64,000 nt of DNA from Chiloscyllium plagiosum. Taxonomy: Eukaryota. The stretch is from contig NC_057719.1 in assembly GCF_004010195.1 (NCBI RefSeq), forward strand, positions 26,509,537 through 26,573,536. The letters are read 5' to 3'. Positions 3,250 through 59,878 of this stretch are shown here, piece by piece. The position numbers were made by a program, and so were the translations under genes. Position 1 is the first letter of the stretch. Each line of letters begins with the position of its first letter. The notes under the pieces were generated by a model, which was not told the origin of the DNA, ran no database searches, and saw only the letters and a list, made by a program, of their open reading frames with translations.

Positions 3250-3690
3250 AGAACTTCAGTTCCAAATGCTTGCCACCCAATGACTGGAGGAAGAATGCCT
3301 CATCTTCTGCCTTGGGACCCTCCAACCACACGGAATCAATGTCGATTTCACCAGTTTCCTCAACCCCCCCCCCCCTAACCTTCCAACTCAGCACTGCCTT
3401 TTTGAACTGTCCTACCTGTCCATCTTCCTTCCTGCCTATCTGCTCCACCCTCCACTCTGACCTATCAGCAGCACCCTCCACCTTCATCTACCTATCGCAT
3501 TCCTAGCTACCGCCCCCGCACTCCCCCAGCCTCAACCCCACTCCCATTTATCTCCCAGCCTCCTTGGCCTAAACCCCCCGCACGCATTCCAGATGAAGAG
3601 CTTATGCTCGAAACGTTGACTCTCCTGCTCTTCAGATGAGGCCTGACTGGCGGCCATTTTCCAGGGCCACATTTTTTGACTCCAGATGAC
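3250..3690 (+). mobile_element. PLE 3' end (GIY-YIG C-terminus plus terminal repeat, family A) with a degenerate hammerhead motif
   Basis: Translates LEEECLIFCLGTLQPHGINVDFTSFL (PLE endonuclease C-terminus), then a C-rich tract, then ccagatgaagagcttatgctcgaaacgttg and the family A terminal sequence. Confidence 0.75.
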
Positions 3691-3854
3691 GTGGTTCACT
3701 TGATAGCTTAAGCATACTTCAGAACTTACAGTAAATACTGTCTGACTTGTGTGACCCATATCTTTGGGAAAAAAAGTGTTGCCATATTCTGATTTCAGGG
3801 GTGACAGATATAAAATACAAAATCCAGTCAGTGAGATCATGGTTAACGATTAAA

Positions 3855-4130
3855 GAGGCAGTGGCACGGTGGTTACTCGACTATTAAGCCAGAGACCAAG
3901 ACTAATATTCTAATCATTGTTGTAAGATCCCATTCAGTTCACAAATGCCCTCTGGGGAAAGAAAGTTGCCGTCCTTACCTATTCTGACATACGTGTGACC
4001 TCAGATGCACAGCAATATGCTTGACTCTTAATCAGCTCTCTGCGCCATTTCAGAAGACAGTTCAAGAAAAATTATAGATGGGTGACATATTCTGGCCATG
4101 TCATTAATGTTCATGTACTGAACACAAGAA
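3855..4130 (+). mobile_element. tRNA-derived SINE, family B (unclassified)
   Basis: Shares body and tail with the copies at 7560, 21925, 33300 and 41130. Confidence 0.6.
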
Positions 4131-4132
4131 TG

Positions 4133-4281
4133 CAGAGGAGCCTCGATTATCCAAACGTCGATTGTCCAAATTTCGGATTATCCGAGCAAAGTCGCGACGC
4201 TTGGCTAAACTGTGTTATCCGGACATTCGATTATCCAAACAAACACTCCCCTCCTGTGTTCGGGTAATCGAGGTTCCTCTC
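4133..4281. mobile_element. Tc1/mariner (pogo/Tigger-like) MITE
   Basis: TIRs cagaggagcctcgattatcc / gggtaatcgaggttcctctc, internal repeats of cgattatcc, and TA on the right flank. Confidence 0.7.
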
Positions 4282-5165: not shown

Positions 5166-5354
5166 TTGCGTAGTGCGGAATCTTGGGTTTGCTATCGGCA
5201 TCATATCAATGCTCTGGAATGTGTCAGTGTGATACTAGGTCCATCATGCAAACATGATAGCAGGACAAAGCTACAAACAATGAGATCCTACATTGTGCTG
5301 GGACCAAGACTATGGAGACTACACTCCAGAACATTCAACCTATCTTCCATATGG

Positions 5355-5581
5355 GAGAAAGTGAGGACTGCAGATGCTGGAGATCAGAGTAAAGAGTGTG
5401 GTGCTGGAAAAGCACAGCCGGTCAGGCAGCATCCGAGGAGCAGGAGAATTGACATTTCAGGCATAAGCCCTTCATCAGCAATGAGGCTCGTTCCCGATGA
5501 AGGGCTTTTGCCCAAAACATCAATTCTCCTGCTCCTCGGATGCTGCCTGACCGGCTGTGCTTTTCCAGCACCACACTCCTG
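5355..5581. mobile_element. Fold-back PLE-derived element (family A) with 92-bp inverted arms and a 12-bp TSD
   Basis: Arms 5394-5485 and 5487-5578 are reverse complements. TSD tcttccatatgg at 5343-5354 and 5582-5593. Each arm carries a hammerhead-like core. Confidence 0.85.
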
Positions 5582-6107
5582 TCTTCCATATGGATGATTA
5601 CAGAATTCCAAGCAGATGATCTATGTAAAACTGTCACAGGGTAAATAAAATCAAGGTGGTTAGTACAAAGGATGGGACCTTGAACCCAGCCTTTCTGGCC
5701 CAGAGAGAGGGGCAGTATGCCTGCACCACAGGAACTCTGCCAACCTGGTTTACAAGAAATGCAAAATTGCTTTCAAATGTGCAGTGTCTAAAATTTGTGA
5801 TTTTGACACTGAGCTACTATCTAAGAATTAATGGCATTTTGTCTTGTGTTATGTTACATTAAAACTTCCCATCATGACTTGGATGTTGCCATATGAACAT
5901 GACAGTAAAAGATTCCTCGACTTAATTGGAACAGACTACAATTATAATTGAAGCAGAAAATGTTCTAAATATAGCAGGAGATGAATCAGTAGTTAAAAGA
6001 CTAAAACAAGTGAACTATTCTGATAGTGTGAATAAAAAAGAAAAGCATCCTGAAAATGCTGGATCTCCAAAATAAAAAGATGATGCTGGAAATATTATTC
6101 CTGTTAG

Positions 6108-6126: not shown

Positions 6127-6165
6127 ACAATTCTGATGACTGAACAGTCAGTTTATTATGGCGTT

Positions 6166-6360
6166 GTGAGTTGGAGGTGCCAGTATTGGACTGGGGTGGT
6201 CAAAGTTAAAAATCACACAACACCAGGCTATAATCCAACAGATTTATTTGGAAGTACTAGCTTTCGGAGCAGCACAACCACCTGATGAAGGAGCGGCGCT
6301 CTGAAAGCTAGTGCTTCCAAATAAACCTGTTGGACTATAACCTGGTGTTGTGCGATTTTT
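6166..6360. mobile_element. Fold-back PLE-derived element (family B) with a hammerhead motif
   Basis: Inverted arms at about 6208-6270 and 6298-6360. Degenerate 14-bp TSD tttattatggcgtt / tttatcatgacgtt. Related copies at 21360-21480 and 52416-53089. Confidence 0.8.
6279..6313 (+). ncRNA. Minimal type I hammerhead ribozyme motif
   Basis: cac-CUGAUGA-a-ggagc ggc gcucu-GAAA-GCUA-gug. Stem I cac/gug pairs, stem II is a hairpin, and stem III is the palindrome AGCU. Confidence 0.7.
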
Positions 6361-7559
6361 ATCATGACGTTATAGCTGAAAGCTTCTGGAAAACATTTGA
6401 TATATAAAAAAAACTAATGACAGCAAGTTTACACTTTCAGAATATGTATTAATTGTATCAGTCTACACTTCTGGTGCTTTTTATTTCACTTGGATCATCT
6501 ATACTTTGGGATATAATATCCCGTATTCTATTGAAAATATCTGTGGTACTAATGATAGGTGTATCTGTTATTTTTTGTCGTTCAACACTGTACACAGCCC
6601 TGAAAATTAAAAGCAGTGTATGAATTTAAATGAAAATGCCAAATATCTAATTAAAAATTCATCACCAAGTACAGTATCAATTACTTTGTAAAATCTTATG
6701 AATCCAGAGAGACACACCATTTGTTAGAGATAGCAAAGATTAGAAATTGGACCTGGAGACTTCATATCCTAACCTGTACTCACTAGAGAAGGTCGCTGAG
6801 TTAATAGGACAAACCTTGGAGTTCAAAATTTCCAAATTAGATGTTGTGTAAAACACATTGCAGAAAGCCTACTTGTGGATTGTGAAACTGAGGTTTAGTT
6901 CTGCACTGGATAAACTCACTGAACCATCAGTCTGCTTAAGAATCATTTGCAGCTGGTGAACATTTTGAGCTGTTAAACCAGAGGATTGAGGATACATACG
7001 CAGGATATGCAGTTTTGGCATGGTACCAATCAGTTTTGGAGATTAACGCCTCATTTATCAACCCTTGTGATTCAGATGCAATGATTTTTATACAAATTAA
7101 AATGTTTTGTCCTGAAAGTGGACAGTGTCCTGTTCCAGCCACGTATTGTGGATTTTTTGTTTGATTTTGCATGTTAAAAGCAATAATTTCAATAATACAA
7201 TCACTTTGTTGATACAGAAGTTTGGGAAGAATTGGTGCCTCCTGATATGATCTAGCTCAAGGATGAGAGCCAGCAGTGGTTCACTGGCATTGAGAAGTGA
7301 GATTTCTTGTTTGCTTTTTTTGGTGTCTACAGTTACTTTGTTCCCTGATATTTTGTAAAAAGGCAGCAAGAGTAGACATGAGCTCACCAAAAAATTTTGC
7401 TTTGAGTAAGAAGACAGATAATCACATTAAGTAAGTATAATGAAATTATTCTTGAAATATGTTATGCATAATCATGTTAGTAAAAATTTCTTTAAAGCAG
7501 CAAGTTACAACTTTGTCAAAGACAATCACTGGGGCTAGCTGACATTACAGGTTGGTTTT

Positions 7560-9274: not shown

Positions 9275-9482
9275 AACAAAAACAGAAATTGCTGGAAAAT
9301 CTCAGCAGGTGTGGTAGCATCTGTGGAGTGAAAGCAGAGTTAGTGTTTCGGGTCCAGTGACACTTCTTCCAAATCAATTTCACTCCACAGATGCTGCCAG
9401 ACCTACTGAGATTTTCCGGCAATTTCTCTGTTTTTATTTCTGATTTCCAGCAACCGTAGTTCATTTGGGTGTTTTTTTTCCC
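9275..9482. mobile_element. Fold-back PLE-derived element (family C) with a decayed hammerhead on the minus strand
   Basis: Arms at about 9275-9333 and 9378-9438. The loop reads (-) gaagaagtgtcactggacccgaaac. Degenerate TSD cagtaatttgtaa / cagcagtttataa. Relatives at 9650, 40315, 43480 and 59755. Confidence 0.75.
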
Positions 9483-10751: not shown

Positions 10752-10873
10752 TAGGCGAAAGTGAGGACTGCAGATGCTGGAGATTAGAGTCGAGAGTGTG
10801 CTGCTGGAAAAGCACAGCAGGACAGGCAGCATCCGAGGAGCAGGATGAAGGGCTTTTGCCTTTCACGCTCTCA
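10752..10873. mobile_element. Collapsed family A fold-back element
   Basis: Starts with gaaagtgaggactgcagatgctgg and includes gatgaagggcttttgcc. TSD acatggtgaaaac (10739-10751) / acatggtaaaac (10874-10885). Confidence 0.75.
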
Positions 10874-16700: not shown

Positions 16701-17187
16701 TCCCCTCCGGTAGTTGAATATTAAAAAAAGCACAGCACCTGTTTAGTTTGGAAGAAATCTGTATGTGCACCTTGAAGAGGGGAGCGATACCATTCCATTG
16801 GAAAGTTGGAACTGCAAATTTTTCTCACCGAAGCAATACCATGAATGTTAAGCAATTGAACAAAGAGAAAGTTGCTCTCTTTTCATGGAACACCAATTGC
16901 GCCAAGTTTGCAATGAACCAGGCAATACTTGAGTATTAGTGAAAAAGTTAAAAAGTATGGTGCTGGTAAAGCGCAGCAAGCCAGGCAGGATCCGAGGAGC
17001 AGGAGAATAAGGCTGGTATGCCAAGCGGGCTGAGATAAAAGGTAGGGGAGAGGGAATTTAGGGGAGGGGCGCTGGGAATACGATAGGTGGAAGGAGGTGA
17101 GGGTGAGAGTGATAGGCCGGAGAGGGGTTGGGGGCGGAGAGGTCGGGAAGAAGATTGTAGGTCAAGAGGGCGGTGCTGAATCCGAGG

Positions 17188-17876
17188 NNNNNNNNNNNNN
17201 NNNNNNNNNNNNNNNNNNNNNNNNNNNNNNNNNNNNNNNNNNNNNNNNNNNNNNNNNNNNNNNNNNNNNNNNNNNNNNNNNNNNNNNNNNNNNNNNNNNN
17301 NNNNNNNNNNNNNNNNNNNNNNNNNNNNNNNNNNNNNNNNNNNNNNNNNNNNNNNNNNNNNNNNNNNNNNNNNNNNNNNNNNNNNNNNNNNNNNNNNNNN
17401 NNNNNNNNNNNNNNNNNNNNNNNNNNNNNNNNNNNNNNNNNNNNNNNNNNNNNNNNNNNNNNNNNNNNNNNNNNNNNNNNNNNNNNNNNNNNNNNNNNNN
17501 NNNNNNNNNNNNNNNNNNNNNNNNNNNNNNNNNNNNNNNNNNNNNNNNNNNNNNNNNNNNNNNNNNNNNNNNNNNNNNNNNNNNNNNNNNNNNNNNNNNN
17601 NNNNNNNNNNNNNNNNNNNNNNNNNNNNNNNNNNNNNNNNNNNNNNNNNNNNNNNNNNNNNNNNNNNNNNNNNNNNNNNNNNNNNNNNNNNNNNNNNNNN
17701 NNNNNNNNNNNNNNNNNNNNNNNNNNNNNNNNNNNNNNNNNNNNNNNNNNNNNNNNNNNNNNNNNNNNNNNNNNNNNNNNNNNNNNNNNNNNNNNNNNNN
17801 NNNNNNNNNNNNNNNNNNNNNNNNNNNNNNNNNNNNNNNNNNNNNNNNNNNNNNNNNNNNNNNNNNNNNNNNNNNN
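17188..17876. other. Assembly gap (689 N)
   Basis: Run of n characters. Confidence 1.
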
Positions 17877-17896
17877 CCGCTTGGCACACCAGCCTC

Positions 17897-17932
17897 ATTC
17901 CTGAAGAAAGGCTTATGCCCGAAACGTCGATT
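17897..17932 (+). ncRNA. Minimal hammerhead ribozyme motif (family A)
   Basis: auuc-CUGAAGA-aaggc uuau gccc-GAAA-CGUC-gauu. The catalytic boxes are intact, stem III is the palindrome ACGU, and stem I is weak. Confidence 0.6.
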
Positions 17933-18889
17933 CTCCTGCTTCTCGGATGCTGCCTGGCCTGCTGCGCTTTTCCAGCACCATACTTTTCAACTCTGGGCTC
18001 CAGCATCTGCAATCCTCACTTTCTCCTATTAGTGAAAAAGACAAATTTTATCAAAGCTTTTCATCTTGCATTTGCCAGGGCAATTTGTAAGAAATACTAA
18101 AGTAAAGGGAAAACAACAGTTACACCGTATGAGAGAAGATTGCTGATTGGTTGGCAAGTAAACTCTGATTGGTCGAGGCATTACCATGGAGAATACACCA
18201 CTTAATGATGACAGGCAAACTAATTGATAACCTTTATTTAAATTTTGAACTGGACAGGTTCAGTAGTTAATGAATTGCTCTGAAAAATGAACCAGAGAAT
18301 AGCTGTTATCCAGAGCCTGGGACAGGACAGTATATCAGGGTTCGTGAACTGGAGTTCTGAGATTGAACTTGCATGTACCGAGAAGATTCATATAGCAACA
18401 AACAAGGCTATCTTGTTTGCAGACAGAAAGAACATGTACACACATTACACCTGTTTTAATGCCACTAAATAGGTGACGGGCATTCTTGTGATATCACCTT
18501 ATCGAATCAGTGTTAACCTTTCTGGTTTAAAATTTAAACAAATATTTGCAGTTAACTGTCAGTCATCATGAACTGGTGCATTTGCCACTGATAACTCCTC
18601 CACCAATTAAAGTCCACTTGTCAACCAATCAGTGTTTACCTCTCATACAGTACAAATATTGTTTCCCCTGTGATATTTCTTGTGAATTCATGAGTGTAAG
18701 ATGAAATCATTTAAAAAAACGTGTCTGTTTTCAGCAATACTCAAATTCTATATTACCAAAACACACTCTGGCATGTTCACTTTACTTTTCTGTACAGTGC
18801 TGTTGGGAACTTTGACAGATTATTCCAAGTATGCCAAAGTTTTGCCTCATCTGCTACTGTGACTTATGGATGTTATCAATAGCATTTAC

Positions 18890-21359: not shown

Positions 21360-21480
21360 ATGATGTGGAGGGGCAGGTGTTGGTCTGGGGTGGACAAAGT
21401 TAAGAATCAGTTATAGTCCAACAGGTTCATTTGGAAGCGTTAGTTTTCAGAGCTCTGCTCCTTCATCAGGTAACTAGTGG
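21360..21480 (-). mobile_element. Family B PLE terminal fragment with a hammerhead motif (21441-21471, minus strand)
   Basis: Minus strand reads acCTGATGAaggagcagagctctGAAAacta. Confidence 0.7.
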
Positions 21481-29835: not shown

Positions 29836-29901
29836 CTTCGAGGAGAAAGTGAGGACTGCAGATGCTGGAGATTAGAGCTGAAAATGTGTTGCTGGAAAAG
29901 C
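29836..29901. mobile_element. 66-bp family A terminal fragment with a 17-bp TSD
   Basis: TSD gcctttcttggtaatat (29819-29835) / gcctttcttagtaatat (29902-29918). Confidence 0.8.
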
Positions 29902-30640
29902 GCCTTTCTTAGTAATATATCAGTAATCACTTCCAAAGCAACACATGCAAGCTCCTACTTTATTTGTACAACACGGCTTGTGCTGCATTCATTGGAATAA
30001 AGTGCCCATGTCAGAGGTCCATACAGAGGTTGGAGTTCTTGATGTTCAACTGTAAAGAGGACTATGCTAATCTGTTATTTGTGTGTGATGCGAATACTGA
30101 CAGCCCACATTGCTAAGGACCTTTACTCTTTCCGATACCCCCCACACAGCTTCATTGGAAGCATGACAAATGGAACTATTCACAGCAGGGCTGATCATTA
30201 CTGTGGCTATGGTGTGATAAAGGTCCAGAGGAATTGAGGAGGAAATGATGCTCCAGTAAGCCTAGGACCAGGAGCTGGTGAATAGCCTGCACATGAAGGG
30301 GTCACAGCTGAAATACCCCTCTGGATTTGCAGGAGGCCCAGAGGCCATAGCCCTTGATGTCATTTTCTCCACCAAAGCGAGGGGCATCATCACTACAAAC
30401 TGACAATGCATTGGGAGACTGTCACAGAACTGTGCCAATGGCTGGAGTGGGACCTGTGACATGAAGGTATGGGTGGCCACTCCTGGTGGCTGTCAAGGTG
30501 ACAGCTGCATTGAACCTTTATGTACCTGGCTGTTCCAAGATTACACTGGGGACCTGTGTGGGACTTCTCAATCCTCAACCCACAAATGCATCAAGACTGT
30601 TACCAATGTATTTTGTACCAGTTCACACCTTTTCATCTCA

Positions 30641-31972: not shown

Positions 31973-32137
31973 TGTCGAGAGTGTGTTGCCGGAAAAGCAC
32001 AGCAGGTCAGGCAGCATCCGAGGAGCAGGAGAATTAATGTCAATTCTCCTGCTCCTTGGATGTTACCTGACCTGCCGTGTTTTTCCAGCAACACACTCTC
32101 TACTCTGATCTCCAGCATCCGCAATCCTCACTTTCCT
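31973..32137. mobile_element. Family A fold-back element with the hammerhead centre deleted, 16-bp TSD
   Basis: Inverted arms meet at gagaattaatgtcaattctc. TSD tataagtatcatgcag (31957-31972) / tataaatataatgcag (32138-32153). Confidence 0.8.
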
Positions 32138-34376: not shown

Positions 34377-34483
34377 AGGGTCTAGATTAGAGTGGTGCTG
34401 GAAAAGCACAGCAGGTCAAGCAGCAGCCCCAGGCCTCACTTTCACCTAGTTGATTTTAACCTTATTGCGAATCCTCTTGCAAG
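34377..34483. mobile_element. Short rearranged family A PLE fragment
   Basis: gtggtgctggaaaagcacagcagg core. Degenerate TSD gtcacctaacttt / gtcatctaaattt. Confidence 0.6.
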
Positions 34484-40314: not shown

Positions 40315-40490
40315 AAAAAAACAAAGAACTGCGGATGTTGGAAATCAAACAGCACTTGCTGGGAAAACTCAGTAGGTCTGGCAGCATCTGGCACTTCTGA
40401 TATTCTGAAGAAGGGTCACTTGGACTCCGGTCCACAAATTCTGCCAGACCTGCTGAGTTTTTCCAGCAATTTCCGTTTTTGTTTCTGAGC
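40315..40490. mobile_element. Family C fold-back element
   Basis: Arms ttgctgggaaaactcagtaggtctggcag / ctgccagacctgctgagtttttccagcaa. The loop holds CTGAAGAagggtcacttggactc with GAAA lost. Confidence 0.75.
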
Positions 40491-42432: not shown

Positions 42433-43479
42433 AATATATTCTTGAATTAGGTCCAGATCTGGTGTGTAAAGGGTATTTCAAAGAAACATTTTTCCCTTCC
42501 CTTTCCCCCAGAATTTGCTCCCATTTTTGCCAAAGGCTGTACTAGCATTATTTTTTGGATGCTGGCCCTACTTCAGCTTTTTATTTCATATGCAATTCTT
42601 CACAACCTAACTGAGTTCGCTAACAACCTATTTTATTGGTAGGAGGTGGAGCAAAGGAAGAAGTATTGTGACGACTAAGTCAAATGCTGTCTATGTGCAC
42701 TCTTTCTGCTAACTGCCACTGGGTAATGATCAAATTGGACCAAGTTTTTGTTGCTTTATACTTTCTTTGAGCCCAACATCTTAAGCCTGATTTCTACCAT
42801 CTTCAAGTTCACCTATCTAGGTGCAGACAGACATCTGAATTTGGGACAGCTTGGTTCATCTAACTCAAAGTGGATCTTCAAAGTGGAAAAAGATTTTAGC
42901 AAAAAAAATAAATCTAGGAAGCGTGCACATGCCTGCATTGAAATAGGATTTTTTTCTCTTGCAACACACTTGCTAGCATGCATATCTCTTTTTAAGCAGC
43001 AGTACAATACTCCAAGTTTGAAAATTTACAACCACTGTTAAATAAACCTTTTTGAAATCAATCCTTAGGAAATTTGACTAAAATGGAAAACATTGGTGTT
43101 TTCTCATTTCCACAAGCAGAACATCTTTGTGCTATTTCTGATTTTAGGTATTGATCAGTTGTTTGTTTGAGAAGATGGTAACATTGAAGGCATATTTCAG
43201 TTGAATGCATCAATTGACTGTCAGTCATGAGTGCAATTTGAGTACTATTTAAATCCTTATTTTTGTTACTACTTTCAGTATCATCTTGATGAATTTATAA
43301 CAAGTGCACCATTGCGTTTCTTAATCATTTAGATGCTAATTAAAAAGTCCATTTAAGTGTTGTTCCTCATGGAGATGGCATGGTGGTATGATCCATCCTT
43401 CATTATAAGTACAATTATAGTGTATACTTTACAGTAAATTGTTTTTTAAAGTTTTACCAAAGTGATAAAGTAAATGTAA

Positions 43480-43670
43480 ATAAAACAAAGAACTATGGAT
43501 GCTTAAGATGGGAAGCAAACAACAGAAAATACTGGAGAAGCTCAGCAGGTCTGACAGCATCTGTGCAGAGAAAGCAAGAATTAACATTGAGTGCAGTAAC
43601 CGTCGGAGTCTAAAAAGGAAATCACTGGCTCTGCTTTGGCTTCACAGATGCTGCTAGATTTGAGTTTTCA
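43480..43670. mobile_element. Decayed family C fold-back element
   Basis: aaaacaaagaact...cagcatctgtg / cacagatgctg inverted arms. Confidence 0.6.
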
Positions 43671-44379
43671 AACATGAAGTAAATTTCACTTGTACATCAT
43701 TGCTGTCTTCAGTTTTTCAAATGATTGTTTTGTTTTCCTGTGTCCTCTGTTGTTTTTATCTCTAGCCATAAGCTTTCTTGGCAAAGAGTGTTCTTATTGC
43801 TGGGAAATGCTCGATAAAGGGCTGCAGTACAGATCAATACCATGATTGAAAATCACAAATAATGGCATCTAATGAAGTACTTCAAGAATTAGTGATTATA
43901 ATACAACCTTTTATAACCTTTTGGGTTAGAAAGTTAGAGGAGGGCAAGTAATGGGAGGGTGATATAGTGGCACTGATGGATTGCCTGTACTATGCACCAG
44001 GTGATATTAGTTACTCCAGATAAACCAGAACTTTGATTTACACACCTGAGGCTCTCAATGGATAACCCCAGGCTAAAGGAGACAGGAGAACCAGTATTAA
44101 AACATTATACCTTTTTCTTCAAGAAGGATTCGCTTTTTAGTACAGGTACTGTCATCTTGGCAGAGTCAAACTATTTTAATGCACTGTAATGTCTCTGTTC
44201 TGTGAAATGCTTGATAATCAGTTTGCCTTAATTAAAATGGTAGTAAGCTGGGACATTGATTAATTATAGAAGGATTACTTTTCTGAATCTTTGATTTTTT
44301 TTTTTAGAATTTACATGAAATAATTTCAATCCTAATACTGTAGTTGTCTCTTTTGCCATTCAGTAGATTATGATATGAG

Positions 44380-46145: not shown

Positions 46146-46458
46146 GTGGGTGGCACAGTGGTTAGCACTGCTGCCTCACAGCGCCAGAGACCTGGGTTCA
46201 ATTCCCGCCTCAGAATTGACTGTGTGGAGTTTGCACGTTCTCCCTGTGTCTGCGTGGGTTTCCTTCGGGTGTTCCGGTTTCCTCCCACAGTCCAAAGATG
46301 TGCAGGTCAGGTGAATTGGCCATGCTAAATTGCCCGTAGTGTTAGGTAAGGGGTAAATGTAGGGGTATGGGTGGGTTGCCCTTTGGCGGGGCGGTGTGGA
46401 CTTGTTGGGCCGAAGGGCCTGTTTCCACACTGTAAGTAATCTAATCTAATCTAATCTA
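46146..46458 (+). mobile_element. Young full-length HE1-like SINE
   Basis: A box tggcacagtggtt, B box ggttcaattcc, (ctaat)n tail, and a possible TSD tagac(g)tgtgg. Confidence 0.9.
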
Positions 46459-49229: not shown

Positions 49230-49625
49230 TTTTTGCAAGGTTTGTGAAGGTTTGTAGCTCAGGTTGAGGCTTAGGGTGTAGGTTTGCTCGCTGAGCTGTA
49301 GGTTTGATATCCAGACGTTTCATTAACTGGCTAGGTAACATCATCAGTGGCGACCTCCAAGTGAAGCGAAGCTGCTGTCTCCTGCTTTCTATTTATATCT
49401 TTCTCCTGGATGGGGTTCCTGGGGTTTGTGGTGATGTCATTTCCTGTTCGTTTTTTTAGGGGTTGATAGATGGCATCTTGATCTGTGTGTTTGTTTATGG
49501 CATTGTGGTTGGAGTGCCAGGCCTCTAGGAATTCTCTGGCATGTCTTTGCTTAGCCTGTCCCAGGATAGATGTGTTGTCCCAGTCGAGGAAAAAACCCCC
49601 ACCATTTCGACTGGGACAACGCATC
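49230..49625 (-). mobile_element. Short PLE (family E) 3' end with a terminal hairpin inversion, nested in a CR1 3' fragment
   Basis: FDWDNTSILGQAKQRHAREFLEAWHS..INKH (GIY-YIG C-terminus). Inverted gatgtgttgtcccagtcga / tcgactgggacaacgcatc at 49568-49625. Confidence 0.8.
49311..49350 (-). ncRNA. Minimal hammerhead ribozyme motif (family E)
   Basis: Minus strand reads cca-CUGAUGA-uguuaccuagccaguuaau-GAAA-CGUC-ugg. Stem I cca/ugg pairs and the cleavage triplet is GUC. Confidence 0.7.
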
Positions 49626-49877
49626 TGAAAGGGCAATACTTTCCACACAGGATGATGTCTCTGGAGCAGGTTGCCACAGGTAGTGGTGGAGGAGAATGCA
49701 ATTTTGTCATTTAAGAAACATTTGGTCAGGTAAATGGATGGGACCGATATGGAGGGATGTGGACCAAGCACAGGTAAATGGGACTAGATTAATTGTGAAA
49801 ACTGGCCAGTAAGGACAAGTTGGGCTGAAGGGCCTAATTCCATGCTGCATACCTTTATGATTCTGACTCTGGTAATA

Positions 49878-52391
49878 GCCAGTTTTGAGACTATTTGTAG
49901 CTCAGGTTGAGGTTTATGATGTAGGTTTGCTCGCTGAGCTGGAAGATTCATTTCCAGACATTTTGTCACCACACTAGGTAACATCTTCAGTGGGCCTCTG
50001 GGTGAAGCACTACTGATAATTCCTGCTTTCTATTTATGTTTGGGTTTCTTTGGGGTGGTGATGTCATTCCTGTTCTTTTTCTCAGGGGTGGTAGAATGGG
50101 CCGAACTCGATGTGTTTGTTGATAGTTCTGGTTGGAATGCCACGCTTCGAGGAATTCTCGTGCATGTCTCTGTTTGGCTTGTCCTAGCCTAGGATGGATG
50201 TGTTATCCCAGTCAAAGTGGTGTCCTTCCTTATCTGTATATAAGGATACTAGTGAGAGAGGGTCATGTTTGTCCAGTGTAGTGTTTGTTACAGTTCTTGC
50301 ATGGTATTTTGTAAATGACATTAGTTTTGCTTGTTGTCTGTGTAGGATCTTTCAAGTTTATTAGATGCTGTTTTAGTGCGTTGGTGGGTTTGTGGGTTAC
50401 CATGATGCCAAGGGGTCTGAGTAGTCTGGCAGTCATTTCCGAGATGCCTTTAATATAGGGGAGAGTGGCTAGGGTTTCTGGACGTGTTTTGTCTGCTTGT
50501 TTGGGTTTGCCGCTGAGAAATCAACGGACTGTGTTCACTGGATATCCATTCTTTTTGGATACACAATCAAGGTGATTTTCCTTTGCTTAGTTCCTCTGTG
50601 CTGCAGTGTGTGTTGGCTCATTGAAATAATGTTCTGGTGCAGCTTTGTTTGTGGACGTTGGGATGATTGTCTGTGTAGTTCAATATTTGGTCCGTATGTG
50701 GTGTTTTCCTGTAGATGCTGGTTTGAAGTTCCCCATTGGCTGTTTGCACTACTGAGACATCTAGGAATGGCAGTTTGTTGTTGTTTTTCCTCCTCTTTAA
50801 TGAATTTTATGCCAGTAAAGGTATTACTGATAGTCTTGAAGGTTTCCTCTTTGTTTCGTTTCGTGATGACAAAGGTGTCATCCATGTAGCGGACCCAAAA
50901 TTTGGGTTGGATGGTTGGTAGAGCTGTTTTTTCTAGTCTTGCATTACTGCCTCTAAGAACCCTGATATCGGAGATCCCATGTGTGTTCTTTTGGTTTGTC
51001 TGTAGGTTTTGTTGTTGAAGGTGAAGTGTGTGGTATACATAGGTCCACTAGCTTGACGATACTGTCCTTGTTGATGAAGTTGGTGTTTGGTGTATGTGTC
51101 TTTGGTTCTTCTAATAATGAAGTCAGTGTTTCCTTGGCCAGGTTGATGTCGATTGATGTAAACAGGGCTGTTACATCAAAGGAGACCATTATTTCATCCT
51201 CTTCAAACTTGGTGTCTTTGGTCTTCAGGAATTCTTGGGTGGAATGGATGGAGTGGCGTGAGTCTTCTAAAGTGTTTTAGTCTTTGGTGTAGCTCCTTGC
51301 CCAATCTGTAAGTTGGTGTTCCAGGTAGCAAGCCTATGGGTCTGAGGAGGGCTCCTGGTTTGTGAATTTTGGGTAATCCATAGAAGTGTAGTGTGTTGGA
51401 TCCATCTGGTTTCATTTTATGGAAGTCGGTCTTATTTATGTCTCCAGATTTCTGAAGTTTTTTGTGGAGGGCTGTTATTTGGTTCTTTAGTTTCCTGCAG
51501 ACCCATGGAACACCAACTTACAAGTTGGCCAAGGAGTTTCATCAAAGACTAAAACACTTAGTAGAAGACTCACACCACTCCACCCAAGAATTCCTGAAGA
51601 CCATCAAAGACACTAAGGTAGAACAGAACAGGATGAAATAATGTTCTCCTTTGAAACAGCCCTGTTTACATCAATCAACATTAACCTAGCCATGGAAACA
51701 CTGACTACACTATTAGAAGACCCAAAGACACGTACACGAAACACCTTTAACTTCATCAGCAAGGACAGTATTGTCAAGCTAGTGGACCTATGCCTTACCT
51801 CACACTTCACCTTCTACCTATAGACAAACCATTGGAACACCCATGGGATCTCCAATATCAGGGTTCTTAGCAAAAGCAGTAATGCAGAGACTCGAACGAA
51901 CAGCCCTGCCAGGGTACAGACAACAAGCAAAGCTAATGTTACAGTTCTTGCACGGTATTTTGTAAGTGACAAGTACTACATTGGATAAACAGGCAGAAAA
52001 CTAGCCACCAGGATACATGAACATCAACTAGCCACAAAACAACAAGACCCTCTCAGTAGTATCCTTACATACAGATAAGGAAGGACGCCACTTCGACTGG
52101 GACAACACATCCATCCTAGGACAAGCCAAACCAAGACATGCACGAGAATTTCCAGAAGCGTGGCATTCCAACCGGAACGCACTCAACAAACATTTGAGTT
52201 AGACTCCATTTACCACCCCCGAGAAAAAACAGGAAATGACATTATCAACCCAACGAAACCCAAACATATAAATAGAAAGCAGGAATCATCAGCAGTGCTT
52301 CGCCCGGAGGCCCACTGAAGATGTTACTTAGTAGGGTGATGAAACATCTGGAAGTGAACCTTCCAGGCTCACACAGCAAACGTACTTCCAA
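49878..52391. mobile_element. 2.5-kb Penelope-like retroelement with inverted structure (minus 49878-~51495, plus ~51496-52391) and a 12-bp TSD
   Basis: FYGLPKIHKP, MVSFDVTALFTSI, MGSPIS, WVRYMDDTFVI (RT) and GIY-YIG remnants. TSD actctggtaata at 49866-49877 and 52392-52403. Hammerhead motifs at 49954-49993 (-) and 52312-52351 (+). Confidence 0.9.
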
Positions 52392-52415
52392 ACTCTGGTA
52401 ATATTAATTAGAACA

Positions 52416-53089
52416 AAGTTAAAAATCACACAACACCTCCGAAAGCTAGTCTGCTTCCAATTAAACCTGTTGGACTATAACCTGGTGTTTTGTGATTTTT
52501 AACTTTGTACACCCCAGTCCAACACCGTGTGGTGTAAAATTATGTCCCAATACATGTGTGAATCATAATGTAACACATGTATTGGGCCAAGCAGTGGAAT
52601 GTGGTGAAACGGTTAAAAAATTATGTCCCAATACATGTGTGAATCTAACCGGAATGGAGGTGTTGCTTAGTCCCGTGTGAATCTTATTACACACCTCCCC
52701 GTGTGAATCTTCTTATCTGTATGTAACCAGAATGGAATGTGTTTTTTAGCCTTGCTCTGCTGTTCACATGAATGTTTATATCTGGAAAAGAGTATATCAG
52801 CTGGAAAAGTCTCCAGTTCGGTGAGTCTGCTCCGGGGTTATGTTTAACCGCCGAGCGTGGGTTGTTGGCAACCGCTCTACGAGAACTGACGGCTCCCAGT
52901 TCCGGTAACATGTAGAGTGAGTATAAGCCAGACCCGTTGTAAGGATGAGACCTGGTTGTGGCGACGCTGCGGGGAATAAAACACTTATATTCTAGCAGAC
53001 TCGCCTCTTGGCTGTTTGTTCTGTGTCAGACTACTCTCCTACGAACCTGACCTTGAGAATTTTTTAAAACACACCGGCATCTCCGAATC
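52416..53089. mobile_element. Family B fold-back element with a 12-bp TSD, interrupted by a solo LTR
   Basis: TSD ttaattagaaca at 52404-52415 and 53090-53101. Arms caaagttaaaaatcacacaacacc / ggtgttttgtgatttttaactttg. Confidence 0.8.
52528..53071 (+). mobile_element. Solo LTR (544 bp) with a 5-bp TSD
   Basis: TG...CA termini, TSD caccg (52523-52527 / 53072-53076), TATA-like gtataa near 52921, AATAAA near 52975, and internal direct repeats. Confidence 0.85.
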
Positions 53090-53199
53090 TTAATTAGAAC
53101 AGTTTTTCTTCAAATCCATTCTGGAGTCAATTGTCTACATTTGATATGCAAACAAATCTGTCAAAAATGTTCTCAGAATTGAATTTCTTATAAAAATAA

Positions 53200-53740
53200 C
53201 AGAAGATGATTAATGATGACAGTTAACACCCAAGCTTTGTTAAATGTTAAACCAGATTGCCTTGAGAACTGAACAATTTCCGAATCAATGCTCTGACCAG
53301 TGAATGGTTATAATCCACTTTATGTTGAATTTCAACTTATTAAAATACATAACTGGTTCAGAATCTAACTACGTTTTAAAATTAAACACGGCCTGGTTGT
53401 TAACTGTCAATCAGCATTAATGGGTGCATTCTTTGTCAGTGCCTCTATCAACCTTCCCTCTTAAGTGGTGTGCACGCACAGCCGCTCTGATGTTGGTGTT
53501 GGCATGCTGATGGCAGTACTGACTTGCAGTTTTCGATGTTGCTGCCCTGCACCGTGCAGCCAATAAGAAAATTAGAGGGAACACTGAACTCTGCCAATCA
53601 GAGTCCAATTGCCAACCAGTCAGCACCCTCTTTTTATGCAGTATAAGTGTGATTTACCCTTTGGATTTGTATTCTTGTGAAATATTCTGAGTGCAACTTG
53701 TAAAGCTTTGATAAAACATCTTTTTTTTAGCAACACTATT
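53200..53740. repeat. Second family D fold-back copy, containing a hAT-like MITE at 53449-53586
   Basis: gatgacagttaac / gttaactgtca arms and ccaatcagagtcca..gccaacca are shared with 18500-18744. The insert ends ttagagggaacactg. Confidence 0.6.
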
Positions 53741-54769: not shown

Positions 54770-57160
54770 AGTGTGTACAAGAAAATTTTCTGATTCAGTA
54801 TGTGGATGCATCTACTAGAGAAGGTGCAAAGCTTGACCTACTCTTGGGAAATAAGGCAGGGCAGGAACACTTTGGGGCTAGCGACCATAATTCTATTAGC
54901 TTTAAAATAGTGATGGAGAAGAGTAGACCAGATCTAAAAGTTGAAGTTCTAAATTGGAGAAAGGCCAATTTTCACAGTATTCGGCAGGAACTTTCGAAAG
55001 CTGCTTGGGGGCAGATGTTCGCAGGTGAAGGGATGGCTAGAAAATGTGAAGCCTTCAGAAATGAGATAACGGGAATCCAGAGAAATTATATTCCTGTTAG
55101 GGTGAAAGCAAAGACTGGTAGGTATAGAGAATGCTGGATGACGAAAGAAATTGAGGTTTTGATTAAGCAAAAGAAGGAAGCATATGTCAGGTATAGATAG
55201 GATAAATCAAGTGAATTCTTAGAGTATAAAGGCAGTAGTATATTTAAGAGGGAAATCAGGAGGGCAAAAAGGGAACATGAGATAGCTTTCGCAAATAGAG
55301 GTAAGGAGAATCCAAAGCGTTTTTACAAATATATTAAGGACAAAAGGGTATCTAGGCAGAGAATAGAGTCCCTCAAAGATCAGTAAGGCTACCTTTTGTG
55401 TGGAGCCGCAGGAGATGGGGCAGATACTAAATGAGTATTTTGCATCGGTGTTTACTGTGAAAAAGGACATGCAAGATATAGAATGTAGGGAAATGGATGG
55501 TGGCATCTTGAAAAACTGTCCATATTACGGAGGAGGAAGTGCTGGATGTCTTTAAACTCATAAAGGTGGATAAATCCTCAGGAACTGATCAGGTGCTCCC
55601 TAGAACTCTGTGGGAGGCAAGGGAAGTGATTGCTGGGCCTCTTACTGAGATATTTGTATCATCGATAGTCACAGGTGAGGTGCCAGAAGACGAGGTTGGC
55701 TAACGTGGTGCCACCCTTTAAGAAAGGTGGTAAGGACAAGCCAGGGAACTATAGACTGGTGAGCCTGATGTCGGTGGTAGACAAGTTGTTGGAGGGAATC
55801 CTGAGGGACAGGATGTACATGTATTTGGAAAGGCATGGGCTGATTAGGGATAGTCAACATGGCTTTGTGCATGGGAAATCATGTCTCACAAACCTGATTG
55901 AGCTTTTATGAGGAAGTGTCTCACAAACCTGATTGAGCTTTTATGAGGAAGTAATATAGAGGATTGATGCGGGCAGAGCAGTGGACATGATCTATATGGA
56001 CTTCAGTAAGGCGTTCGACAAGGTTCCCCATGGGAGACTGGTTAACAAGATTAGATCTCACAGAGTACAGGGAGAACTAGCCATTTGTATACAGAACTGG
56101 CTCAAAGGTAGAAGACTAGGGTGGTGGTGGAAGGTTGTTTTTCAGATTGGAGACTTGTGACCAGTGGAGTGCCACAAGGATCGGTGTTGGGTCCACTTCT
56201 TTTCATCATTTGTACAAAATGATTTGCATGTGAGCATAAGAGGTACAGTTAGTAAGTTTGCAATGACATCAAAATTGGAGGTAAAGTGGACAGCGAAAAG
56301 GGTTACCTCCGATTACGAGATCTTGATCAGATGGGCCAATGGGCTGAGGCGTGGCAGATGGAATTTAATTCCAGATAAATGTGAGGTGCTGCAATTTGGG
56401 AAAGCAAATCTTAGCAGGACATACACTTAATGGTAAGGTTCTCGGGAGTGTTGCTGAATAATGTTGAAATGCAGGTTCATACCTACTTGAAAGTGGAGCC
56501 GCAAGTAGCTAGAATAGTGAAGATGGCGTTTGGTATGTTTTCGTTTATTAGTCAGAGTATTGAGTACAGGATTTGGGAGGTCATGTTGCGGCTGTGCAGG
56601 ACATTGGTTAGGTCACTGTTGAATGGAGAATATCTGGTCTCCTTCCTATCGGCAAGACGTTGTGAAACTTGAAAGGGTTCAGAAAAGATTTACAAGGATG
56701 TTGCCAGGATTGGAGGATTTGAGCTATAGGGAGAAGCTGAACAGGCTGGAGCTGTTTTCCCTGGAGCGTCAGAGGCTGAGGGGTGACCGTTATAGAAGTT
56801 TACTAAATCATGAGGGGCATGAATGGGATAAATAGACAAAGTCTTTTCCCTGGGGTCGGCGAGTCCAGGACTAGAGGGCATAGGTTTAGGGTGAGAGGGG
56901 AAAGATATAAAAGAGACCTAAAGGGCAACGTTTACACGCAGGGGGTGGTACGTGTATGGAATGAGCTGCCTGAGGATGTGGTGGAGGCTGGTACAATTGC
57001 AACATTTAAGAGGCATTTGGATGGGTATATGAATAGGAAGGGTTTGGCGGGATATGGGCCGGGTGCTGGCAGGTGGGACTTGATTGGGTTGGGATATCTG
57101 GTCGGCATGGATGAGTTGGATTGAAGGGTCTGTTTCTGTGCTGTACATCTCTATGACTCT
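54770..57160 (+). mobile_element. 5'-truncated HER1/CR1 LINE ORF2, frameshifted
   Basis: TREGAKLDLLLGN, PGNYRLVSLMSVV, DFSKAFDKVPH, and a ctctatgactct tail. Confidence 0.9.
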
Positions 57161-57944
57161 GACCCGATCTGTTCAGAGATATTGTTGCACACCTCTGGAG
57201 CCGATGGCACTTGAACCCAGGCCATCTGGTCCTTGGGGATGAATGTAACCCCTCTGCCACAAGAAGGTCCCATCAATTCCCTCCATATCCCACAGTGTCA
57301 CACATTCACCTTATTTCAATGCTCGGGCGAGTAATAGTTACCGCCAGTTTCTCACTCTGAAAAAGACATTAAGTTTGTCAATGGGCTTAGCCAGACAGTA
57401 ACATTAAGAAATAATATATCTTGATACATGAGCATCTGGCCCTTTTTAAGGAAGTGGGACTAAAATAAATTAATTTCCATACATTGACTTTTTTTAATTA
57501 GATTTGAGTGAGAAACTAAATCAAGGTGTTTTGCCAAGTGAAGCATGGGAAGAAGATTTGTTGTCGTGACAAATTACAGCACAGGATAATATGACAGTTC
57601 ATAAGTTCTCTGAGTAGACACTTAAAAAGTAAATCAAAAGAAAAAATATTATTTAAGCTACTGATTTGATGCTTATTGGGGTGATGTGTACAACAAATTA
57701 TAAGGGATTTTAGATATCATTGTAGTTCAAAAGTAGCACAATCATCTCTGTCAGCAACCCATCAAAAGTTTTAAGTGCATAGTTGAGACTGACATTTGAG
57801 GGAAGGAGTACTGTACTGATGAAGCTACTGTCTTTCCAGTCCCCTCTGGACATTGGACTCCAGTGGTCCTAATCCAAGTAAAGCAAGGAGTTGTATATTC
57901 TATACCACTTATCACTGTTATCAATTATCCTTTTGAAACTGATG

Positions 57945-59655
57945 GTCATAGAGTCAGAGATATACAGCATGGAATCAGACCCTTCGGTCCAACTCGTCCA
58001 TACCAACCAGATATCCCAACCCAATCTAATCCCATCTGCCAGCACCCGGCCCATATCCCTCCAAACCCTTCCTATTCATATACTCATCTGGATGCTTTTT
58101 AAATGATGCAATTGTACTAACCTCCACCACTTCCTCTGGCAGTTCATTCCCACATACCCACCACCCTCTGTGTGTGAAAATGTTGCCCCTTAGGTTTCTT
58201 TTATATCTTTCCCCTCTCACCCGAAACCTATACCCTCTTTTCCTGGACCCCCCTCCCGGAAAACATCTTGTCTATTTACCCTATCCTAATTTTGTAAACA
58301 AGGTCACCACTCAGCTTCTGACACTCCAGGCAAAACAGACCCCAGCCTATTCAACCTCTCCCTATAGCTCAAATCCTCCAAACCTGGCAACATCCTTGTA
58401 AATCTTTTCTGAACCCTTTCAAGTTTCACAACATCTTTCCAATAGGAAGGAGACCAGAATTGCATGAAATATTCCAACAGTGGCCTAACCAATGTCCTGT
58501 ACAGCTGCAACATGACCTCCTAATTCCTGTAGTCAATACTCTTGAGAATGTATGTAGGGTATAAGCAGGTAGGGAAAGAGTTAAGTTTTTTGAGTTTTGT
58601 CAAACAGGAGGTTCAGCTGAGCATAACTCAGATCAGATAAGAACTTGAAGTTAACAATAGGGTGCTGGAGGCAAGGGTAATGGGTTAATAAGGTGGAAAA
58701 GCATTCATTATGTAGAGCCATTTATCAATATTGGAAGCATTCAGTATGTAAGGTCAGTTTAACAAGGTGAAAAGTATTCATTTTGTGAAGCCAGTTAAGG
58801 TTATGAACATTCATTGCTTAAGAGTAGCTGGCTTAATCTTTACTGTTGATGCTCTCTGATTGTAACAGTCACCCATTCAATACGTATGTCGCCTTATCTG
58901 GATGCTCCTCCCTGTAAAATGACTATATAATTAATTAAGAAATTGCTCTTCCAGAGAAGACTGAGAACTTGTGCCTTTGTGCACAGGCGATTGTTCTGTC
59001 TCCCTCCAGAGCCCAGAATAAAGGTGAAGGAGGTAAAACTATATTGTCTCTGAGCATTTTGCTTTGACTGAGGGGGAAATGGGACGACACTCTGACCAAT
59101 AAAAGAAAGCATACCACACACCGCCTTTGCTATCCTATCTACCTGCGACTCTACTTTCAAGGAGCTATGAACCTGCACTCCAAGGTCTTTGTTCAGCAAC
59201 ACTCTTTAGGACCTTACCATTAAGTGTATAAATCCTGTGAAGGTGTGCTTTCCCAAGATGCAGCACCTGACATTTATCTAAACTACATCTGTCACTTCTC
59301 AGACCATTGGCCCATTTGATCAAATCCCATTGTAATCCGAGGTAACCACCTTTGCTGTCCACTACACCTCCAAATTTGGTGTCATCTGCAAACTTACTAA
59401 CTATACCTCTTTTATGCTTACATCCAAATCATTTATATAAATGACGAATAGTCGTGGACCCAGCACCGATTCTTGTGGAACTCCACTGGTCATAAGCGTC
59501 CAGTCTGAAAAACAACCCTCCACCACCACCCGCTGTCTTTGCCCTTTGAGCCAGTTCTGTATCCAAGTGGCTAGTGTTCTCTGTATTCCGTGAGATCTAA
59601 CCATGTTAACCAGTCTCCCATGGGGAACCTTGTCGAATGCCTTACTGAAGTCCAT
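57945..59655 (-). mobile_element. 5'-truncated HER1/CR1 LINE, interrupted by a solo LTR
   Basis: MDFSKAFDKVPHGRL..GVPQESVLGP..IYINDL and a gtcatagagtca tail. Confidence 0.9.
58543..59089 (+). mobile_element. Solo LTR (547 bp) with a 4-bp TSD
   Basis: TG...CA termini, TSD ctct (58539-58542 / 59090-59093), ctatataa near 58923 and AATAAA near 59017. The CR1 sequence resumes cleanly on both sides. Confidence 0.85.
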
Positions 59656-59754
59656 CAATGGTCTTGTGACAACTTTTTTTTTTCAGACCTTTGTGTGCAA
59701 TTTGGATTATTGAATTTTCATAGATTACAACTATGTTTCAAAAATACTTCTAAT

Positions 59755-59878
59755 AAAAGCACAATACCACAGATTCTGGAAATCTGAAATAAGAACAAAC
59801 CCAGCATGAATAGCAGAATCTGTGGTGGAGAGAAAAAAAAGTTCATGTTTTGAGTCCAATATGATTTCTTCAGAAGGC
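59755..59878 (-). mobile_element. Family C-related PLE terminal fragment with a decayed hammerhead
   Basis: Minus strand reads tCTGAAGAaatcatattggactcAAAACatgaac, with ccacagattctg / cagaatctgtgg arms. Confidence 0.55.

What the first reader, a model, noticed from the sequence alone, without database searches (positions are those of the whole stretch)
3250..59878. Multiple unrelated families of short fold-back, hammerhead-bearing Penelope derivatives with long TSDs
Seen: roughly a dozen short insertions of 65-230 bp in three sequence-unrelated families (A: 5355, 10752, 29836, 31973, 34377; B: 6166, 21360, 52416; C: 9275, 40315, 43480, 59755). Most are inverted repeats centred at or near a CUGANGA-hairpin-GAAA-NUH motif, and eight have 12-17 bp AT-rich TSDs. 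Family A is directly linked to a PLE GIY-YIG C-terminus at 3250-3690. Known: PLE terminal repeats encode minimal hammerheads, and PLE copies often have inverted 5' ends. Inference: these are either recurrent products of PLE reverse transcription with strand switching near the ribozyme, or a non-autonomous hairpin-RNA element class mobilised by PLE enzymes. They look like MITEs but have retroelement-type TSDs. Junctions differ between copies here, which favours independent formation. I cannot tell whether this is already described for sharks.
Basis: partly seen in the sequence, partly recalled or inferred. Interest (0 to 1): 0.8.

Follow-up and report, generated by a model that had tools for sequence, protein, structure and literature searches.

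The report
Twin-primed miniature Penelope insertions, shark
These short mirror-image inserts are real stubs of Penelope-type jumping genes in a layout already known for that group, with one arm carrying a short tail that the other lacks, and each was likely made afresh when both cut DNA strands primed copying of the element's RNA, which would explain a long-unexplained shape of these elements.

Summary
The inserts are real. Nine of 12 named have two arms, both Penelope-like-element (PLE) 3' ends pointing outward; 8 of 12 have adjacent 11-17 bp TSDs; only 3 keep an intact hammerhead core. A and C share sequence, so the families are not all unrelated. Family A links to a shark RT+GIY-YIG protein; B and C parents were not found. 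In 10 of 11 two-arm inserts (one more degenerate) one arm has a 30-42 nt tail and the other lacks it: the published 'inverted 5'-truncated copy plus tail' layout, also seen here at 1.1 and 2.5 kb. Public contigs show two fixed 3' ends in families A and D, and family-A 5' ends piling 4 nt before CUGANGA at an initiator-like site, not at the ribozyme cut. All 9 window junctions differ, so a self-propagating hairpin class is unsupported. Likely mechanism: both nicked strands prime at two RT start sites, and the short cDNAs join head to head. The scan found this before on other DNA (178 notes, at least 20 genomes).

The parts
3252..3690 (+). Old family-A PLE 3' end: GIY-YIG C-terminal peptide (3284-3361), C/T-rich UTR, decayed hammerhead (about 3590-3617), start of the terminus
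5354..5578 (.). Family A two-arm insert: tailed arm on - (5354-5491, intact hammerhead core at 5478), tail-less arm on + (5487-5578); TSD 5339-5354 / 5578-5593, 15/16
6166..6361 (.). Family B two-arm insert: tailed arm on -, tail-less arm on + with intact hammerhead core at 6282; TSD 6152-6165 / 6358-6371, 12/14
9275..9479 (.). Family C two-arm insert: tail-less arm on - reaching the hammerhead front, tailed arm on +; TSD borderline (10/13, p 0.083)
10754..10872 (.). Family A two-arm insert: tailed arm on -, internally deleted tail-less arm on + starting inside CUGANGA; TSD 13/16
16948..18026 (.).
17895..17901 (+). Initiator-like heptamer; its A (17897) is where genome-wide family-A 5' ends pile; predicted transcription start
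   Evidence: the Inr consensus YYANWYY is recalled
21361..21471 (-). Family B single tailed arm, 5' end 2 nt before an intact hammerhead core; no TSD found
29840..29903 (-). Family A single tailed arm, 63 bp, no hammerhead, no inversion; TSD 16/17
31973..32137 (.). Family A two-arm insert: tail-less arm on -, tailed arm on +; both 5' ends within 6 nt of the predicted ribozyme cut; TSD 14/16
34377..34443 (.). Family A insert of two non-overlapping pieces: tail-less arm on -, and 13 nt of the tail end on + (12/13, weak); TSD 10/11
40315..40488 (.). Family C two-arm insert: tailed arm on -, tail-less arm on + starting at the hammerhead front; no TSD found
43478..43674 (.). Family C two-arm insert, degenerate: tailed arm on -, shorter tail-less arm on +; TSD 43465-43475 / 43674-43684, 10/11
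49235..49626 (-). Family D tailed arm with hammerhead core at 49347 and a 20-bp micro fold-back at its 5' end (49568-49626); no TSD found
49878..52391 (.).
52414..53089 (.). Family B two-arm insert: 25-nt tail-less arm on -, tailed arm on + whose tail is split by a later insert (about 52528-53069); TSD 52400-52415 / 53086-53101, 15/16
59753..59878 (-). Family C single tailed arm, old, 5' end 2 nt before CUGANGA; no TSD found

Best explanation
These are very short insertions of endonuclease-bearing Penelope-like retrotransposons, most made of two element 3' ends set head to head inside one 11-17 bp target duplication, and each was likely built afresh when the element's enzyme cut both target strands and each cut end likely primed its own short cDNA from the element's RNA. 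Steps: (1) A staggered cut leaves 11-17 nt 3' overhangs (inferred from the TSDs and the outward-pointing arms; cutting and extension of both strands is shown in vitro for the anole element PAc). (2) The two cDNAs start at two fixed sites about 30-42 nt apart, giving one tailed and one tail-less arm (two fixed ends are shown here; that they are RT start sites is inferred from PAc). Because pairs are always one of each, the two starts are likely coordinated, for example by a protein dimer on one RNA (inferred). (3) Each cDNA stops early. In family A most stop at an initiator-like A 4 nt before the hammerhead core (shown), likely because the RNA begins there (inferred, about 0.5); in family D there is no such stop (shown). 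(4) Host repair joins the two cDNA ends head to head (inferred). The hammerhead is a passenger of the terminal repeat, and the products are likely dead ends.
For: Layout: 10 of 11 two-arm inserts in the window clearly pair a tailed with a tail-less arm (the 11th, C43480, fits but is degenerate); none is tail/tail or none/none; chance at best 0.5^10 = 0.001. It holds in four families and two PLE clades. In 5 of 9 named two-arm inserts the tail-less arm reaches 24-69 nt further 5' than the tailed one, so neither arm can be a plain copy of the other. Genome-wide: family D has two listed outer ends with mixed A/T-rich flanks, 49876 (168/163/96 contigs in X1/X2/X9) and 49918 (458/479/288). Family A has loose ends at about 17977-80 and 18027-8, and tail depth is 0.50 of body depth in raw reads of X21. 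Family-A 5' ends pile at 17897-8 (378+265, 246+156, 312+226 contigs; 212 reads at 17897), and depth upstream falls to 0.01-0.05 of the body. In the window 8 of 21 arm 5' ends lie at -13..+3 of CUGANGA (2.6 expected, p 0.003) and none further upstream. Junctions: 9 of 9 differ; 7 listed strand-change joints for A and 3 for D all differ, each in 1-2 contigs. Parent link: A; D. Literature: PAc cuts and extends both strands, starts RT at two internal sites that bound the tail, is predicted to dimerise, and does not need ribozyme cleavage (PMC11167929).
Against: Palindrome centres can be deleted unevenly after insertion (recalled), which would mimic the arm asymmetry; two short arms (10752, 40315) do carry internal deletions. 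D49235 has a 20-bp micro fold-back at its 5' end, so local fold-back does occur. In D, tail-less ends outnumber tailed ends about 2.7 to 1 among listed rows (a further 51-78 contigs clip at 49894), not 1 to 1, and there is no listed 5' pile: upstream depth stays at 0.54-0.66. 4 of 21 arm ends lie within about 6 nt of the predicted cut (p 0.19). The lay tables show only top rows (882 and 902 loose-end rows, 24 and 16 joints hidden), contigs break at palindromes, and the A reference ends 20 nt upstream of the pile. One joint (18023-4 to 17960) has depth 80-167, above single-copy level, and its kind was not shown. The extra G before 17897 is only the majority letter in 3 of 4 runs (X21 shows T); no window copy shows it clearly. 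Same-insert arms are more alike than other pairs only in A5355, A16946 and D, not in A31970, B6166 or C. PAc is Poseidon-type whereas family A is Neptune-type. No parent ORF was found for B or C.
Confidence: 0.68

Rival explanations
1. One cDNA folds back on itself, or the RNA self-primes on an antisense template, and the second arm is copied from the first; uneven centres come from later deletion, and the tail from endonuclease resolution of the intermediate.
For: Proposed in PMC3846280 (Discussion); the tail is ascribed to EN-mediated resolution in PMC8557442. Micro fold-back at 49568-49626. A5355 arms are 56/56 identical in the outer stem. 4 of 9 inserts are compatible with it as they stand.
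Against: 5 of 9 inserts need an extra deletion, in each case from the tailed arm. It does not explain why the second arm stops at one fixed point about 40 nt short, whereas PAc has two RT starts bounding the tail.
Confidence: 0.18
2. A non-autonomous, self-propagating hairpin-RNA class: a fold-back element is transcribed whole and re-inserted by PLE enzymes as a unit.
For: Very high copy number (36,000-49,000 contigs laid on the 150-nt A terminus per run); TSDs flank whole hairpins; non-autonomous PLE derivatives exist (retrozymes, bioRxiv 10.64898/2026.07.22.740005); one unexplained multi-copy joint.
Against: 9 of 9 junctions differ; 10 listed strand-change joints are each in 1-2 contigs; single arms and 1.1-2.5 kb inserts share the same ends and TSDs; only 3 of 12 keep an intact core.
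Confidence: 0.07
3. Hammerhead cleavage makes the RNA's 5' end, and RT runs off at the NUH cut, which fixes the turning point.
For: Both arms of A31970 end within 6 nt of the predicted cut; 4 of 21 arm ends are near it. Cleavage was proposed as the role of PLE hammerheads (PMC4209133).
Against: 4 of 21 is not above chance (p 0.19). No listed pile at 17928-9, while the pile is 32 nt upstream. Many arms contain the whole ribozyme upstream of the cut. PAc insertion does not need cleavage, and no reads began at its cut.
Confidence: 0.04
4. MITEs (DNA transposons) that happen to resemble PLE ends, at least for B and C.
For: Short, inverted, high-copy; no parent ORF seen for B or C.
Against: TSDs are 11-17 bp and vary; arms are unequal; single-arm copies exist; C shares sequence with A, which is tied to an RT+GIY-YIG ORF; B keeps a hammerhead core.
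Confidence: 0.02

Closest known systems
Complex insertions of endonuclease-positive PLEs: 5'-truncated copy, adjacent inverted 5'-truncated copy, 30-40 bp tail at one end, TSD (Craig et al. 2021 PMC8557442, passages and section 15; Arkhipova et al. 2013 PMC3846280, passages and Discussion)
   Same: Head-to-head 3' ends, tail on one arm only, TSD around the whole unit, hammerhead in the terminal repeat, RT plus C-terminal GIY-YIG parent (A, D).
   Different: Here the unit is mostly 60-230 bp with no ORF, is very abundant, has longer TSDs (11-17 bp against 8-10 bp in the rotifer passages read), and in family A stops at one 5' site. Those papers leave the mechanism open or propose self-priming.
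Poseidon element PAc of the green anole, in vitro (Frangieh et al. 2024 PMC11167929, parts 1-2 of 4 read)
   Same: Two 3' ends bounding a tail, A/T-rich targets, both strands used, ribozyme cut not the boundary.
   Different: In the parts read, PAc work does not address inverted products, TSD length or 5' stops. Family A is Neptune-type by its homologue's linker; only D is Poseidon-like.
Minimal type I hammerheads of metazoan PLEs (Cervera and De la Pena 2014 PMC4209133, parts 1-2 of 4 read)
   Same: CUGANGA, long stem II, GAAA, short palindromic link, NUH. That paper notes dual motifs 100-700 bp apart on opposite strands.
   Different: Sharks are not named in the parts read; most copies here have decayed or lack the core; activity untested.
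Non-LTR retrozymes (bioRxiv 10.64898/2026.07.22.740005, part 1 of 5 and passages read)
   Same: Non-coding, hammerhead-bearing, PLE-derived; present in one chondrichthyan genome.
   Different: Retrozymes are head-to-tail tandems with a ribozyme in each unit; these are head-to-head or single arms with TSDs.
L1 twin priming (recalled; named only in a search listing)
   Same: Both target strands prime cDNA, giving an inversion inside one TSD.
   Different: In L1 the second priming is at a variable internal site and the pieces barely overlap; here both starts are fixed, about 40 nt apart, so the arms overlap and form a palindrome.

Membership tests
Endonuclease-positive PLE insertion | Parent ORF with RT and C-terminal GIY-YIG (families A, D) | tested here: met
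   A: 3284-3373 is 23/31 identical to the C-terminus of P0018, which has RVT_1 (below its cut-off) and GIY-YIG (above its cut-off). D: pieces match RT proteins at 53-80% and the GIY-YIG region of P0009 at 57%. The window pieces alone gave no Pfam hit above cut-off.
Endonuclease-positive PLE insertion | Parent ORF for families B and C | not testable with these tools
   No whole genome held; C is tied to A only by DNA likeness; B has no link but the motif and layout.
Endonuclease-positive PLE insertion | Inverted 5'-truncated copy adjacent at the 5' end | tested here: met
   9 of 12 named inserts plus 16948 and 49878.
Endonuclease-positive PLE insertion | 30-40 bp tail at one end only | tested here: met
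   10 of 11 clear, 30-42 nt; two fixed ends genome-wide.
Endonuclease-positive PLE insertion | Minimal hammerhead motif in the terminal repeat | tested here: met
   Core in A, B, D copies, CUGANGA half in C; listed variants in A fall at N7, loop II and CpGs (134 rows hidden). No Rfam hammerhead model matched.
Endonuclease-positive PLE insertion | Ribozyme self-cleavage | not testable with these tools
   Six motifs folded alone gave no hammerhead fold and z-scores of -1.2 to +0.5; minimal motifs are reported inactive as monomers.
Endonuclease-positive PLE insertion | Target-site duplication | tested here: met
   8 of 12 named, plus 2 of 4 further PLE pieces.
Endonuclease-positive PLE insertion | Partial tandem (direct pLTR) | tested here: inconclusive
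   None in the window; three listed tail-to-head joints elsewhere, 1 contig per run each.
Neptune clade (family A) | CX2-5CxxC linker between RT and EN | tested here: met
   Present in homologues P0018 and P0019 (motif), not readable in the window; no RT tree was built.
Neptune clade (family A) | Microsatellite insertion bias | tested here: inconclusive
   None of the family-A TSDs printed is a microsatellite; by eye, small sample.
MITE | Equal terminal inverted repeats with a short fixed TSD | tested here: not met
   Unequal arms, single-arm copies, 11-17 bp TSDs.
Non-LTR retrozyme | Head-to-tail tandem units, each with a complete type I hammerhead | tested here: not met
   No tandem units in the window self-comparison; definition.
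Self-propagating non-autonomous element | Many dispersed copies sharing one internal junction | tested here: inconclusive
   9 of 9 window junctions and 10 of 10 listed strand-change joints are distinct, but 40 joints were hidden and contigs break at palindromes.

The most novel reading that the evidence does not exclude
One PLE protein dimer loads on one capped RNA, uses its two RT start sites to extend the two cut target strands at once, and in family A usually runs off the transcription start about 90-130 nt away. Most genomic copies are then strong-stop-like records of the RNA's 5' leader, and the class-wide inverted pLTR plus one-sided tail is the direct footprint of coordinated twin priming in both Neptune and Poseidon clades.
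Probability: 0.35. Interest if true: 0.65.

Novelty: new member of a known kind. Interest (0 to 1): 0.4.

Why it matters
How PLEs form their inverted repeats and one-sided tail is named as an open question in PMC8557442. Tens of thousands of miniature copies with mappable ends give a natural data set, and the existing PAc in vitro system can test the twin-priming prediction directly. For annotation, these hairpins can be mistaken for MITEs or microRNA precursors (weak miRNA-model hits). The elements themselves are not a new class.

Tried and rejected
No whole genome was available, so no census of junctions or search for B and C parents. Motif scans of viral and metagenome contigs gave 1 and 25 loci; all 26 match over only 19-28 nt, i.e. 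chance. Rfam gave no hammerhead hit and only sub-threshold miRNA-type hits on the hairpins. Pfam on 8 window peptides: nothing above cut-off. Word-based protein search with the A peptide: none; the HMMER search gave 2 hits, of which P0013 is a chimera, and a search with it led to P0018 and P0019. Single-strand folding of six hammerhead motifs was uninformative. No RNA holder was listed for the window; RNA run X22 laid 0 reads on family D, which is no test; X21 reads were used only as a sample of copies, not as evidence of element expression. Literature searches for a shark description or for twin priming in PLEs found nothing relevant, nor did the search for a cap-derived G; subscription journals, Repbase and Dfam were not searchable, and no supplements were read. 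An 11/12 repeat near 59755 was rejected as a TSD because it lies 28 bp off the edge. Rejected readings: MITE, retrozyme, cut-site run-off.
Full report
Setting. The window is 64 kb of vertebrate DNA (41% G+C, one gap at 17188-17876). Its retroelement peptides match proteins of Stegostoma, Rhincodon and Chiloscyllium, so it is shark DNA. No whole genome was held; genome-wide evidence comes from laying public contigs and reads on two window stretches.

Observation. The fold-backs are real: seven arm pairs of 25-92 nt at 81-96% complementarity. Of the 12 named short inserts, 9 have two arms and 3 are single arms (29841, 21360, 59755). Adjacent TSDs of 11-17 bp pass a null of 1000 random site pairs at p<=0.003 in 8 of 12; I set the edges after looking, and with looser edges only 4 of 12 reached p<0.01. 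The TSD of B52416 appears only across a later 540-bp insert, and C43480 ends at 43674. An exact hammerhead core survives in 3 of 12. A and C are related (85% over 40 nt; co-alignment). Two larger inserts with the same layout were missed: A16948-18026 (14/14 TSD) and family D 49878-52391 (12/12 TSD).

Identity. The peptide at 3284-3373 is 23/31 identical to the C-terminus of P0018, a whale-shark protein with RT and GIY-YIG domains. P0018 carries a CX4CxxC linker, the Neptune mark according to PMC8557442. Its relative P0019 ends in a peptide that by eye reads through a family-A-type hammerhead. Family D encodes broken RT and GIY-YIG pieces 53-80% identical to RT proteins and 57% to the endonuclease region of P0009, which is only 26% identical to P0018 over the RT region. 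I call D Poseidon-like from that contrast; no tree was built. B and C have no ORF link in the window.

Anatomy. In every two-arm insert both arms are element 3' ends pointing outward. In 10 of 11, one arm runs to the end of the terminus and the other stops 30-42 nt short; C43480 fits but is degenerate. This is the published PLE layout: an inverted 5'-truncated copy next to the main copy and a 30-40 bp tail at one end only (PMC8557442 passages; PMC3846280 passages; PMC8969392 passages). Independent choice of ends would give mixed pairs at most half the time, so 10 of 10 has chance 0.001. In 5 of the 9 named two-arm inserts the tail-less arm reaches 24-69 nt further 5' than the tailed arm; the other 4 fit either model. 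All 9 junctions differ. Of 21 arm 5' ends, 8 lie at -13 to +3 of the CUGANGA box (2.6 expected, p 0.003), none further upstream, and 4 within about 6 nt of the predicted cut (2.3 expected, p 0.19).

Genome-wide test, family A (single arm 17877-18070, 80% likeness). 48,975, 35,775 and 48,532 contigs (X1, X6, X9) and 3,381 raw RNA reads (X21) were laid. The largest listed 5' loose ends are at 17897 and 17898 (378 and 265; 246 and 156; 312 and 226; 212 reads at 17897), with mixed flanks (agreement 0.31-0.33 in contigs). Position 17897 is the A of an initiator-like heptamer, 4 nt before CUGANGA and 32 nt before the predicted cut, where no pile is listed. Depth upstream is 0.01-0.03 of the body in contigs and 0.05 in reads; tail depth is 0.50 of the body in reads. 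3' loose ends are at about 17977-80 and 18027-8. The majority letter before 17897 is G in the three contig sets and T in X21. Seven strand-change joints are listed, all different, in 1-2 contigs at depth 7-45. Limits: 882 loose-end rows and 24 joints are hidden, the reference ends 20 nt upstream of the pile, contigs break at palindromes, and one joint of unshown kind (18023-4 to 17960) has depth 80-167.

Genome-wide test, family D (49850-50150). About 10,000-12,600 contigs per run were laid; X22 laid none. Two outer ends dominate, 49876 (168, 163, 96 contigs) and 49918 (458, 479, 288), both with mixed A/T-rich flanks; 51-78 more clip at 49894 with a different tail. There is no listed 5' pile at the hammerhead, and upstream depth stays at 0.54-0.66. 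So the two 3' ends are general, while the 5' stop is family-specific. Three strand-change joints are listed, each in one contig per run; 16 joints are hidden.

Mechanism. The anole Poseidon protein PAc cuts and extends both target strands, prefers A/T-rich DNA, starts reverse transcription at two internal sites that bound the tail, is predicted to dimerise, and inserts without ribozyme cleavage (PMC11167929, parts 1-2 of 4). Applied here (inference): a staggered cut leaves two 3' overhangs, each primes a cDNA, one from each start site, and repair joins the truncated ends head to head, giving TSD, palindrome and one-sided tail in one event. For family A the 5' pile suggests run-off from an RNA that starts in the terminal repeat; an internal pLTR promoter with an initiator is documented for Drosophila Penelope (PMC2377424 passages). 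The cap-derived G is recalled from other retroelements, was not found in print and is weakly supported here. The main rival is fold-back or antisense self-priming (PMC3846280 Discussion) followed by uneven deletion of the centre. The 20-bp fold-back at 49568-49626 shows such events occur, and the A5355 arms (56/56 identical outside, 28/36 inside, p 0.0003) show that arms may be altered after insertion.

Comparison and novelty. The inserts work like, and by the tested features are, endonuclease-positive PLE insertions; they fail the MITE and retrozyme tests. The hammerheads are the minimal PLE type (PMC4209133); activity is untested. Ten literature searches found no description of these shark inserts or of twin priming in PLEs; Repbase, Dfam, subscription journals and supplements were not seen, so a prior description is possible. 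The scan's own notes hold 178 findings with these words in at least 20 genomes, with the same twin-priming and start-site readings. They are unchecked and not independent support. My twin-priming reading was noted before I saw them; the start-site lead, the longer-arm test and one paper came from them and were then tested here.

Verdict. Real, a known layout at its smallest size, not a new element class. Twin priming is the best-supported mechanism (0.68); run-off at a transcription start in family A is about even odds. Interest 0.4.

Noticed in passing
window 52528-53069: A 540-bp insert with TG...CA ends, short terminal inverted repeat and a 5-bp duplication splits the tail of B52416; it looks like a solo LTR and is younger than the B insert. 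It holds a 29-bp internal direct repeat.
   Followed up: partly
window 5394-5578: The two arms of A5355 are 56/56 identical in the outer stem but differ at 8 of 36 inner positions (p 0.0003). Unexplained: conversion between arms, or two templates.
   Followed up: partly
window 49568-49626: 20-bp inverted repeat at the 5' end of the family-D piece 49235-49587, inside ORF sequence: a local fold-back unlike the twin-ended inserts.
   Followed up: partly
window 52392-52415: B52416 inserted immediately beside the right TSD of D49878; three PLE inserts lie within 49235-53101, suggesting a preferred A/T-rich site.
   Followed up: no
window 17008-17010: The tail-less arm of A16948 lacks the whole hammerhead by a clean deletion between short repeated letters.
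   Followed up: no
window 4134-4280: A 147-bp element with 23-bp equal terminal inverted repeats, a MITE-like contrast to the PLE fold-backs.
   Followed up: no
window 563-1744: Single 393-codon open frame that looks like WDR89 (name recalled).
   Followed up: no
window 39000-40110: G+C-rich island and a first coding exon at about 39953-40106 that looks like PPP2R5E (name recalled); the C inserts at 40315 and 43478 would lie in its intron.
   Followed up: no
window 12382-15383, 25290-27652, 30629-31602, 54773-59655 and others: Many LINE-like RT fragments and a dispersed 300-bp SINE-like family, some nested or inverted.
   Followed up: no
window 18027-18260, 18515-18739, 53594-53727: A further repeat in inverted orientation across about 700 bp, into whose edge A16948 inserted.
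   Followed up: no
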